From a virus (taxonomy: Duplodnaviria > Heunggongvirae > Uroviricota > Caudoviricetes), in IMG/VR virus record IMGVR_UViG_2526164598_000015: a stretch of 39,465 bases of DNA. The stretch is one strand, 5' to 3'. The notes under the pieces were generated by a model. That model saw nothing but the letters and a program-made list of their open reading frames with translations. It was not told where the DNA came from and made no database searches. Shown piece after piece: positions 10,115-11,524 of this stretch. Every line of letters starts with the position of its first letter. Within the stretch, counting starts at the first letter, position 1. A program made the position numbers and the translations under genes.

Positions 10115-10594
10115 TCACATGAGCCTTGTTATGTCTTTTAGACGCGACCAGGTAGTATAAAATTTTTTAAATGTAATAAGCAGGAAAAAAATTCCCACTT
10201 GGAGTAATAGTTGGGCATATGTGTGCTCGTCGGCATCTTTTACTAGTGGGAATTTAAACTTTAGTGTATCAGGGAAAAATAATAAAATGATAAAAATAAT
10301 ACAAACTGATAGTAACCATCCCATAGTGGAGTGCATTTCTTCGGTCAGTTTTTTCAAATAACCAGTTTTTCCTATATTTCTAATTAGCGTATTATCTCTA
10401 GCTGAAGCAATCAAGGTAAGCGAACCTAAAACAAAGCCAAATAATATCCCAGAAAATGTAGAAACGGCCGAAGCGATTGGCTGAATTTGTGCAAAATTTA
10501 GCTTTGCAGAAAGAGGCCATGCGATGATACAAAAAACAACAGAGGCTAAATTATAACCATAACTGTACAAAGTTATCAATTTCCCCTTTTTCAT
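10115..10594 (-). CDS. Four-helix membrane protein, RexB-like candidate (second gene of two-gene cassette)
   Basis: 159 aa, four hydrophobic segments; segment LTLIASARDNTLIRNIGKTGYL resembles lambda RexB LTFLIGSRTRRLAKIREYGYM as recalled; 15 bp downstream of the 304-aa gene; AT-rich. Confidence 0.55.
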   Translation of the reverse strand: MKKGKLITLYSYGYNLASVVFCIIAWPLSAKLNFAQIQPIASAVSTFSGILFGFVLGSLTLIASARDNTLIRNIGKTGYLKKLTEEMHSTMGWLLSVCIIFIILLFFPDTLKFKFPLVKDADEHTYAQLLLQVGIFFLLITFKKFYTTWSRLKDITRLM

Positions 10595-10609
10595 ACCATC
10601 GCTCCAAAA

Positions 10610-11524
10610 TTAATCAACTCTTTGATTGGCTACTCCAAAGTATGCCTTCAATTCATCATCTTTACTATCTTTTGCAAGAGTTAAGGCGCTCCAAATGCTG
10701 CCAACTAATGGATACCTACCTCCAAGTTCAACATCTGTGTAGTAGACTAATTTGTCTGCTACAAGATCGATAGGATGCTGTACACCGGTCTCAATGTCTT
10801 GGGTTTCTAGTTTAAGTTTTTCAACCTCAAAAGTCTCTAGTGTTTCTTTAAAGGCTCTTTTTAGTTGAGAACCTAGATAGCGAGATTCAGGATCTTCAGA
10901 ACGACTATCCCCACGTAATGTAAGATTTACTTTGGCAGAATTAGTACCATTTAGAGTGGCTATCAATGCATTGTTGAAGTTATGTTCAACATCCTCATAT
11001 AGTTGCACATTCTTTGGCCGAGCGATACCGATTTCTAGAGTTTTGATTCGAACTTCATTACGCATCAACCACTTTAAACTACTGGTCTGAATGATGGGAT
11101 TAACAGTTGTATTTTGTGAACTGTTGGAAAGATATTTACTTAATAGCAACCAGCCATAACAGAGTCTGTTTCGTTGAATTATTAAAACTGAGTCTTGGGT
11201 ATAAAAATGAAAATAAGCTTTTTCTAATAAGTTTTCATTGATTTCAAGTTTAATTTCTCTTTCTTCACCTCCGGCTACAGCAACATGAGGGAGATTATTG
11301 GTTCTGTGTTTTCCTATAACTCCCCTGAAACCATAGTCGGTTCTTTCCATGAAGCGCATTTCAACTAGTTTATTTCCTATTTTACGTACAGTTTTGTCTC
11401 GGCCTTCGCTGTATGACTCAAAAATTTTTGAAAAAACAGCTTCAGGTGAATTAACTCCTGCATTTGTATCAGTGCTTATAGTGTGACATTGATAAAAATC
11501 GAAGAAAAAGCGCTTGCTAGCCAT
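10610..11524 (-). CDS. Soluble 304-aa protein, first gene of the cassette; RexA-like by position and size only
   Basis: ATG 11524 with AGGA RBS; no hydrophobic segments; no motif I can assign; AT-rich codon usage unlike flanking phage genes. Confidence 0.45.
   Translation of the reverse strand: MASKRFFFDFYQCHTISTDTNAGVNSPEAVFSKIFESYSEGRDKTVRKIGNKLVEMRFMERTDYGFRGVIGKHRTNNLPHVAVAGGEEREIKLEINENLLEKAYFHFYTQDSVLIIQRNRLCYGWLLLSKYLSNSSQNTTVNPIIQTSSLKWLMRNEVRIKTLEIGIARPKNVQLYEDVEHNFNNALIATLNGTNSAKVNLTLRGDSRSEDPESRYLGSQLKRAFKETLETFEVEKLKLETQDIETGVQHPIDLVADKLVYYTDVELGGRYPLVGSIWSALTLAKDSKDDELKAYFGVANQRVD

What the first reader, a model, noticed from the sequence alone, without database searches (positions are those of the whole stretch)
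10115..11524. AT-rich two-gene cassette resembling a displaced RexA/RexB-type abortive-infection system
A 304-aa soluble protein is followed 15 bp downstream by a 159-aa protein with four hydrophobic helices, both on the minus strand and both much more AT-rich than the flanking phage genes. The membrane protein has a segment (LTLIASARDNTLIRNIGKTGYL) that resembles lambda RexB (LTFLIGSRTRRLAKIREYGYM) as I recall it, with the same size and topology. The upstream partner has the size and position of RexA but no similarity I can verify, so it may be a divergent or new sensor. In lambda, rexAB sits next to cI; here cI (5919-6557) has no rex neighbours and the cassette lies 4 kb away with its own control region.
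Basis: partly seen in the sequence, partly recalled or inferred. Interest (0 to 1): 0.85.

Follow-up and report, generated by a model that had tools for sequence, protein, structure and literature searches.

The report
Divergent RexAB-type phage-exclusion cassette in prophage
An E. coli prophage carries an unannotated two-gene cassette whose soluble protein has the fold of phage lambda RexA and whose membrane protein is a distant RexB relative, so it is most likely another RexAB-type anti-phage "abortive infection" system, a kind already known, but one that standard annotation misses.

Summary
There are two intact minus-strand genes, 304 aa (10610-11524) and 159 aa with four TM helices (10115-10594). 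They are 15 bp apart and have GC 0.36 against 0.51 for the window.

- **159-aa protein.** It is a remote RexB homologue.
  - 19 of 22 family members hit the PADLOC RexB model.
  - The family profile finds P0115 (E 5.5e-14), which passes Pfam RexB's cut-off, is 37% identical to lambda RexB, and is encoded right after a DUF6731 gene.
- **Pairing and context.**
  - The pair is adjacent in every locus examined, across phyla.
  - It moves between lambdoid and Mu-like prophages, islands and a plasmid-like contig.
  - In Pseudomonas phage AUS531phi it follows cI, as rexAB does in lambda.
  - Here it forms a module with a convergent Q antiterminator gene and has a conserved promoter-like element of its own.

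Function is inferred, not shown. RexAB-like systems found by the same structural logic are already published (P. putida RexABpp, V. cholerae Sucellos). This is therefore a new member of a known kind, of moderate interest.

The parts
10610..11524 (-). rexA-like gene: 304-aa cytoplasmic protein, Pfam DUF6731, RexA fold
10595..10609 (-). 15-bp intergenic spacer with GGAG Shine-Dalgarno (10602-10605) for the second gene; lambda rexA-rexB has the same spacing
   Evidence: Sequence. Lambda coordinates 36259/36275 give a 15-bp gap. The gap is 14 bp in Klebsiella/Rahnella (L016-L019), 1-7 bp in other taxa, and the genes overlap in L015 (Geomonas), L020 and the P0195 contig.
10115..10594 (-). rexB-like gene: 159-aa, four-TM inner-membrane protein, N and C termini and central loop predicted cytoplasmic
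   Evidence: ORF. Four hydrophobic segments, with K/R-rich N terminus and central loop. AF2 four-helix model, pLDDT 80. PADLOC RexB E 0.0015, and 19 of 22 family members hit, best 5e-6. Extended profile against the RexB family: hhalign E 8.5e-5, 0 of 100 shuffles reach it. Bridge protein P0115.
11562..11591 (-). Conserved sigma-70-like promoter candidate TTGCGT-N18-TATCTT. The -35 overlaps a 10-bp palindrome TGCGTACGCA (11581-11590)
   Evidence: This is the only block of the upstream DNA conserved among the E. coli, Klebsiella and Rahnella copies. Coordinates verified. The simple consensus scan did not list it, so activity is inferred.
9586..10110 (+). Convergent Q-family antiterminator gene that travels with the cassette. 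It is frameshifted in this window (A7 run 9745-9751 against A8 in other strains)
   Evidence: PF06530 E 2.6e-30 on the intact allele. Frameshift. 57% aa identity to the Klebsiella prophage Q gene, and 73% nt homology across window 9762-11525 = L016 6000-7771.

Best explanation
The cassette is a RexAB-type two-component phage-exclusion (abortive infection) system carried as a moron by a Rac/Qin-like lambdoid prophage. Shown: gene A encodes a soluble DUF6731 protein with the RexA fold. Gene B encodes a four-TM protein that is a remote homologue of RexB. The two genes are always adjacent, tightly spaced and under purifying selection, and the pair moves horizontally between prophages, islands and a plasmid-like contig. 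Inferred by analogy with lambda RexAB, Sbash gp30/31, CarolAnn gp44/43, P. putida RexABpp and V. cholerae Sucellos: the pair is transcribed in the lysogen from its own promoter (about 11562-11591). The A protein, probably a DNA-binding dimer, senses a feature of an infecting phage, either a replication or recombination intermediate or a specific phage protein. It then activates oligomers of B through B's conserved TM2 and central cytoplasmic loop (QPIAS...N-x3-TGYL). B opens as a channel or pore. The membrane depolarises, ATP falls, and the infected cell stops growing or dies before the phage completes its cycle. The spacing with its own Shine-Dalgarno probably sets the A:B ratio, which is critical in lambda and P. 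putida.
Against: There is no functional evidence for this cassette or for any DUF6731 member; no paper mentions DUF6731. The A protein has no detectable sequence similarity to RexA. The fold match covers 152 of 304 residues, and the model has mean pLDDT 75, with 57-68 across residues about 150-240. The window's own B protein does not reach any curated RexB threshold. Pairwise profile evidence without intermediates is only P of about 0.02. The Foldseek search of the B model against viral structures gave no significant hit and did not return lambda RexB. The promoter is a conserved motif, not a measured one, and the consensus scan missed it. The cassette is not in the immunity operon, so expression in the lysogen is assumed.
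Confidence: 0.75

Rival explanations
1. Butters-type reversed logic. The soluble RexA-like protein is itself the toxic or antiviral effector. The membrane protein only sequesters it until infection releases it.
For: In mycobacteriophage Butters, gp30 (RexA-like) is the effector and gp31 (RexB-like) is dispensable for defence and binds gp30 (summarised in PMC12894663). Nothing in the sequence data here says which partner is the effector.
Against: In the other systems summarised in PMC12894663 (Sbash, CarolAnn, P. putida) the membrane protein acts as the effector, as proposed for lambda, and both genes are required there and in Sucellos. The B family is more conserved in TM2, TM3 and the central loop than a passive anchor would require (28 invariant columns). 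B is found in every locus examined that has A.
Confidence: 0.1
2. Prophage housekeeping rather than defence. The pair modulates the prophage's own lysis-lysogeny decision or late gene expression, as lambda RexA biases the switch toward lytic growth independently of RexB. Its linkage to Q would then reflect a regulatory role.
For: RexA has a documented RexB-independent role at the bistable switch and binds DNA non-specifically (PMC11077077). The cassette is linked to a Q antiterminator gene in E. coli and Klebsiella. In AUS531phi it sits in the immunity region.
Against: The same pair occurs outside prophages altogether, with no repressor or Q gene nearby: a Rahnella plasmid-like contig, Vibrio comM islands and a Photobacterium island. 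It also occurs in a Mu-like prophage with a different regulatory design. A function tied to lambdoid regulation would not transfer that way. The two roles are not mutually exclusive.
Confidence: 0.08
3. An addiction-type or otherwise unrelated membrane module, or decaying cargo. It would be a RdgC/RexA-fold DNA-binding protein plus a small membrane protein with no role in phage exclusion.
For: Function is wholly inferred. The neighbouring Q gene carries a frameshift in this window, and homopolymer differences occur in the 5' UTR. A hok/sok addiction locus lies next door.
Against: Both ORFs are intact and 99% identical to the copies in other strains. Purifying selection is strong across genera. 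The pairing is strict across phyla. The specific RexA and RexB relationships argue for a shared function.
Confidence: 0.07

Closest known systems
Phage lambda RexA/RexB (Pfam PF15969/PF15968; PDB 8TWQ)
   Different: The A proteins share no detectable sequence similarity (9% identity in the structural alignment). The window proteins fail the Pfam RexA and RexB models, and the A protein also fails the PADLOC RexA model. The cassette is not in the cI/PRM operon: it is convergent with a Q gene about 4 kb away and has its own promoter-like element. The T4 rII exclusion phenotype is untested.
Pseudomonas putida prophage P1 RexABpp (PP_5643/PP_5644; PMC12894663)
   Different: Whether PP_5643 belongs to DUF6731 could not be checked because the sequence was not obtainable here. 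RexApp is larger (about 37 kDa with tag). HHpred linked PP_5643 to RexA, whereas my single-sequence hhalign did not link the window family.
Vibrio cholerae Sucellos SclA/SclB (integron cassette, probably VCA0367-0368; bioRxiv 10.1101/2024.07.02.601686)
   Same: A two-gene cassette that resembles RexAB by predicted structure but is not matched by the Pfam Rex domains. It has its own promoter, both genes are needed, and the phenotype is abortive infection. Homologues are often in enterobacterial prophages.
   Different: Sequence identity with the window cassette is unknown. None of the homologues with a source-given organism name (42-99% identical) is from V. cholerae, and the Vibrio copies I examined lie in comM islands, not integrons.
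Actinophage Rex-like systems: Sbash gp30/gp31 and CarolAnn gp44/gp43 (DUF4747), Butters gp30/gp31
   Same: A soluble RexA-like protein plus a four-TM protein encoded together on a prophage. Defence is heterotypic. [quoted passage not shown] A 165-aa Sbash protein is a weak structural match of the B model.
   Different: None of the 25 family members matches Pfam DUF4747 at E<=1, although UniRef labels one of them, P0013, DUF4747. The A proteins are larger (337-372 aa). In Butters the roles are reversed.
RdgC recombination-associated protein (PDB 2OWL)
   Different: It has no membrane partner, it is chromosomal housekeeping, and the structural score is much weaker than for RexA.

Membership tests
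Lambda RexAB (RexA, PF15969 / PADLOC RexA) | The A protein matches the RexA sequence model | tested here: not met
   No RexA hit at E<=1 in Pfam or PADLOC for the window protein or for any of 25 family members. hhalign against lambda RexA gives E 0.58. The PDB profile search returned 0 hits.
Lambda RexAB (RexA) | The A protein has the RexA three-dimensional fold | tested here: met
Lambda RexAB (RexB, PF15968 / PADLOC RexB) | The B protein matches the RexB sequence model | tested here: inconclusive
   The window protein has no Pfam hit at E<=1 and PADLOC RexB E 0.0015. At family level, 19 of 22 members hit PADLOC RexB, best 5e-6. The extended profile against the RexB family gives E 8.5e-5. The link is transitive through P0115, which passes the Pfam cut-off. 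Result: superfamily member, not a member of the curated family.
Lambda RexAB | The B protein is a small inner-membrane protein with four TM helices, termini inside | tested here: met
   Four hydrophobic segments. The positive charges sit on the N terminus and the central loop. AF2 gives a four-helix model. The same segment pattern appears in lambda RexB.
Lambda RexAB | A is immediately upstream of B, on the same strand, tightly spaced | tested here: met
   15-bp gap here and in lambda. Adjacent in all related loci.
Lambda RexAB | Located in the immunity operon downstream of cI and co-transcribed from PRM/PLIT | tested here: not met
   cI is at 5919-6557 and has no rex-like neighbours. The cassette is about 4 kb away, convergent with Q. 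The feature is met by the homologue in Pseudomonas phage AUS531phi.
Lambda RexAB | Excludes T4 rII and other phages by membrane depolarisation; the A:B ratio is critical | not testable with these tools
   This needs plaque assays and measurements of membrane potential.
Lambda RexAB | RexA forms a dimer and binds DNA non-specifically | not tested
   No multimer or DNA modelling was available. This would need SEC-MALS and EMSA, or AF3 dimer:DNA modelling as in PMC12894663.
Pfam DUF6731 (PF20505) | Score above the gathering threshold over most of the model | tested here: met
   47.6 bits against a cut-off of 27, residues 1-268 on model positions 1-269 of 295. All 25 of 25 homologues match. RefSeq annotates the gene as a DUF6731 family protein.
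DUF4747 / CarolAnn-Sbash Rex-like systems | The A protein matches Pfam DUF4747 (PF15931) | tested here: not met
   No DUF4747 hit at E<=1 in 25 members. Only a UniRef legacy name on P0013 says DUF4747.
Sucellos (SclA/SclB) and P. putida RexABpp | Sequence homology to VCA0367/0368 or to PP_5643/5644 | not testable with these tools
   The sequences could not be retrieved. Shared descriptive features are listed under Closest known systems.

The most novel reading that the evidence does not exclude
DUF6731 plus RexB-like pairs form a large, unannotated branch of the Rex superfamily. In enterobacterial lambdoid phages this branch is built into a three-gene module with Q. The cassette lies antisense to the Q-dependent late transcript, between Q and the lysis genes in Klebsiella. 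The prophage's own late transcription would then silence the suicide system by transcriptional collision during induction, while the cassette's promoter and palindromic operator keep it on in the lysogen. That would be a built-in way for an Abi-carrying prophage to avoid aborting itself. The trigger sensed by the DUF6731 protein could also differ from that of lambda RexA.
Probability: 0.15. Interest if true: 0.6.

Novelty: new member of a known kind. Interest (0 to 1): 0.42.

Why it matters
It would assign a function to Pfam DUF6731 and to its unnamed four-TM partner. These are currently annotated as "DUF6731 family protein" and "hypothetical protein" and receive no RexA call from PADLOC. They would join the RexAB superfamily, whose trigger and gating mechanism remain unresolved 70 years after Benzer's rII experiments. 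An E. coli member that is only remotely related to lambda RexAB is experimentally convenient. T4 rII genetics, the BASEL phage set and lambda tools can be applied directly, and comparing two distant RexA/RexB pairs in one host could show which features are essential: the TM2 and central-loop motif, DNA binding, and stoichiometry. It also illustrates that defence cassettes sit in the Q-proximal moron slot of lambdoid prophages. The gain is incremental, because equivalent discoveries (P. putida RexABpp, V. cholerae Sucellos) have already been published.

Tried and rejected
**Direct sequence tests of the 304-aa protein against RexA: all negative.**
- Pfam, PADLOC and NCBIfam.
- hhalign against lambda RexA.
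- A profile search of all PDB sequences.

Only the fold search linked it to RexA.

**Profile comparison of the B family with lambda RexB.**
- Against lambda RexB alone, or against a narrow RexB family, it gave only P of about 0.02-0.04.
- 2 of 100 shuffles did as well.
- I rejected this as insufficient until the exhaustive profile search supplied intermediates.

**Foldseek of the B model against viral structures.**
- No hit reached E<=0.001. The best were 4.4e-3 and 2.7e-2, with TM-scores 0.5-0.66.
- Lambda RexB did not appear.
- Four-helix membrane bundles are too generic for this test.

**Attempts to decide whether the cassette is Sucellos or RexABpp: all failed.**
- The supplement was truncated.
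- No paper describes VCA0367/0368.
- The genome scan returned no V. cholerae or P. putida locus.
- The cluster look-up of ten distant B homologues gave almost no names.
- The afdb50 library was unavailable.

**Other dead ends and negatives.**
- A recalled Sbash accession was wrong; it was phage Cosmo.
- PLSDB plasmids hold no homologue.
- Only one sequenced phage does.
- The weak PADLOC PDC-M18B hits (E 0.007-0.035, 3 of 22 members) were treated as TM-composition noise.
- The simple promoter and terminator scan found no minus-strand promoter upstream of the cassette, and its one terminator-like site lies inside gene B. The promoter proposal rests on conservation instead.

Full report
**1. What is there**

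The window is a Rac/Qin-like lambdoid prophage integrated next to potC/potD in E. coli. It is 99.8% identical over the region to NZ_CP025856 and 18 other complete genomes.

- At 10610-11524 (-) there is an intact 304-aa ORF, and at 10115-10594 (-) an intact 159-aa ORF.
- They are separated by 15 bp that contain a GGAG ribosome-binding site 7 nt before the second ATG.
- The cassette has GC 0.36 against 0.51 for the window and 0.51-0.55 for the flanks.
- The 159-aa protein has four hydrophobic segments, with positive charge on the N terminus and the central loop. This predicts N-in, C-in and a cytoplasmic central loop. The 304-aa protein has no hydrophobic segment.
- The cI-like repressor (5919-6557, HTH_3 plus Peptidase_S24) and cro (6601-6879) are real and have no rex-like neighbours.

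One refinement: the AT-rich tract (about 9450-11850) also includes the adjacent Q-family gene.

**2. The soluble protein**

It is a member of Pfam DUF6731 (47.6 bits against a cut-off of 27), and RefSeq annotates it that way.

- No sequence method connects it to RexA. This covers Pfam, PADLOC and NCBIfam on the protein and on 25 homologues, hhalign against lambda RexA, and a profile search of every PDB sequence.
- No paper in the library mentions DUF6731.
- I built an alignment of 25 homologues (42-80% identity) and obtained a template-free AlphaFold2 model with mean pLDDT 75.3 and pTM 0.69.
- Foldseek against viral models finds uncharacterised phage proteins of 277-322 aa, best E 1.8e-16.

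**3. The membrane protein**

- On its own it gives only a weak PADLOC RexB hit (E 0.0015) and no Pfam hit.
- Of 22 homologues (39-89% identity), 19 hit the PADLOC RexB model, best 5e-6.
- A profile-profile comparison with a RexB family alignment gives E 0.019, which 2 of 100 block-shuffled controls matched. That is suggestive only.
- The exhaustive HMMER search with the family profile over 1.84 billion representatives found 153 proteins at E<=1e-3. Nearly all of those listed are 105-177 aa, mostly 135-160.
- Among them, P0115 (E 5.5e-14 to the profile) passes Pfam RexB's gathering threshold (29.9 against 27 bits) and is 37% identical to lambda RexB over 81 residues, E 2e-9.
- All ten hits I tested have RexB among their Pfam matches.
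- Adding 96 of these hits to the profile raises the comparison with the RexB family to E 8.5e-5 (probability 60%), and none of 100 shuffles reaches that score.
- The register is the same as in the earlier comparison of the unextended family with lambda RexB alone: window 21-84 against lambda 21-85.

I conclude that the 159-aa protein belongs to the RexB superfamily but lies outside the curated RexB family.

**4. The two belong together**

- P0115 (a Pfam-RexB member) and P0195 are each encoded immediately after a DUF6731 gene.
- In all 8 genome loci found with the A profile, the A gene is followed within a few bases by a member of the B family. The loci are Photobacterium, Aeromonas, two Pseudoalteromonas, a Saprospiraceae MAG, Endozoicomonas, Marinobacterium and Geomonas.
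- Against the Klebsiella copies, both genes show pN 0.12-0.13 with pS 0.71-0.78 (A at or beyond saturation, B close to it), which indicates strong purifying selection.
- The best viral structural matches of A and of B come from the same uncultured virus.

**5. Context**

The pair is mobile. It occurs in:
- Klebsiella lambdoid prophages, between the Q antiterminator and the holin and on the opposite strand.
- A Mu-like prophage of Marinobacterium.
- A Rahnella contig with Rep3 and ParA.
- A Photobacterium island with serine recombinases.
- Vibrio islands inserted in a ComM-like Mg-chelatase gene, with a relaxase, and once next to an MmeI-type restriction enzyme.

Only 19 of 5426 complete E. coli genomes carry it, although its flanks occur in 4735. 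Only one of 50,697 sequenced phages has a homologue, and no PLSDB plasmid does.

That one phage, Pseudomonas AUS531phi, places DUF6731 and a B-family gene directly downstream of its CI repressor and divergent from a cro-like gene. This is exactly the lambda cI-rexA-rexB layout.

In the window, homology with the Klebsiella loci runs from the start codon of A through B into the convergent Q gene (window 9762-11525, 73% nt; Q proteins 57% identical). The transferable unit in enterobacteria is therefore Q plus the cassette.

Upstream of A, only one block is conserved among E. coli, Klebsiella and Rahnella: TTGCGT-N18-TATCTT at 11562-11591. Its -35 overlaps a perfect palindrome, TGCGTACGCA. I read this as the cassette's own promoter, possibly with an operator. 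It is inferred, and the simple scan did not call it.

**6. Mechanism**

What is shown: the A fold, the B homology, the strict pairing, the selection and the mobility.

What is inferred from characterised relatives (lambda, Sbash, CarolAnn, P. putida RexABpp, Sucellos):
- The cassette is expressed constitutively in the lysogen.
- A acts as a cytoplasmic sensor, probably a DNA-binding dimer.
- A activates oligomeric B.
- Loss of membrane potential and ATP follows, with growth arrest or death that aborts the infection.

The region of B shared with lambda RexB is TM2 plus the central cytoplasmic loop. In Sbash gp31 this loop is where loss-of-function substitutions map. That makes it the likely gating or docking site.

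Rival readings:
- Butters-type reversed roles.
- A role in the prophage's own switch.
- An unrelated or decaying module.

These are less likely because most characterised systems use B as the effector, because the pair also lives outside prophages, and because both genes are conserved.

**7. Comparison with what is known, and novelty**

The cassette works like RexAB and belongs to the same superfamily, but it fails several membership tests for the curated lambda families. There is no RexA model hit, there is only a sub-threshold RexB hit, and it is not in the immunity operon. It also does not match DUF4747, the domain of the actinophage systems.

Two published systems were found by the same logic: P. 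putida RexABpp (2026) and V. cholerae Sucellos (2024). The latter is "RexAB-like by structure, not matched by Pfam" and is reported to be common in enterobacterial prophages.

I could not obtain their sequences, so I cannot say whether this cassette is orthologous to either. Either way it is a new member of a known kind, not a new kind.

Its value is threefold. It ties DUF6731 to RexA. It offers a second, very divergent Rex pair in E. coli for comparative genetics. And it suggests a testable idea: the antisense placement relative to Q-dependent late transcription may protect the prophage from its own Abi system.

**8. Verdict**

- Observation: confirmed.
- Interpretation: supported.
- Confidence that this is a RexAB-type system acting by B-mediated membrane failure: 0.75.
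- Interest: 0.42.

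Noticed in passing
window 9586-10110 (+), A-run 9745-9751: The AT-rich Q-family antiterminator gene (PF06530) convergent with the cassette is split into two ORFs in the window by a 1-bp difference in a homopolymer (A7 here, A8 and an intact 174 aa in NZ_CP025856). This is either a real pseudogene or an assembly error. The prophage has a second Q-like gene (DUF1133) further downstream, next to the lysis genes.
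   Followed up: partly
window 9762-11525; L016 6000-7771: The Q gene and the rexBA-like cassette are inherited together: 73% nt identity between E. coli and Klebsiella prophages across all three genes. In Klebsiella the cassette lies antisense between Q and the holin, so late transcription would run against it.
   Followed up: partly
window 11541-11548 (-): The T8 run in the putative 5' UTR of the cassette is T6 in NZ_CP025856, a second homopolymer length difference between otherwise 99.8% identical sequences.
   Followed up: no
window 11581-11590: A perfect 10-bp palindrome, TGCGTACGCA, overlaps the -35 of the conserved promoter-like element. It is 9 of 10 conserved in Klebsiella and could be an operator for an unknown regulator.
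   Followed up: no
window 11806-12130 (+): A complete hok/mok/sok type I toxin-antitoxin locus (Pfam HOK_GEF E 3e-23; Rfam sok 108 bits) lies immediately beside the cassette. Related phages carry strings of small nin-region genes in place of the cassette upstream of hok.
   Followed up: partly
L025 (MN585195.1 25553-27739): Pseudomonas phage AUS531phi has CI repressor, then DUF6731, then a RexB-like gene, in lambda-like order. The annotated start of the membrane gene (118 aa) looks too far downstream, because an in-frame upstream extension would restore a first TM helix.
   Followed up: partly
L022-L024 (Vibrio vulnificus / V. parahaemolyticus contigs): In Vibrio the pair sits at the edge of a small mobilisable island inserted in a ComM-like Mg-chelatase gene, with a large serine recombinase and a Mob_Pre relaxase. 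In one strain the island also carries an MmeI-type restriction-modification enzyme.
   Followed up: no
L017 6930-7358: One Klebsiella copy of the membrane gene is shortened to 142 aa (159 aa in its sister loci). This may be a degraded allele.
   Followed up: no
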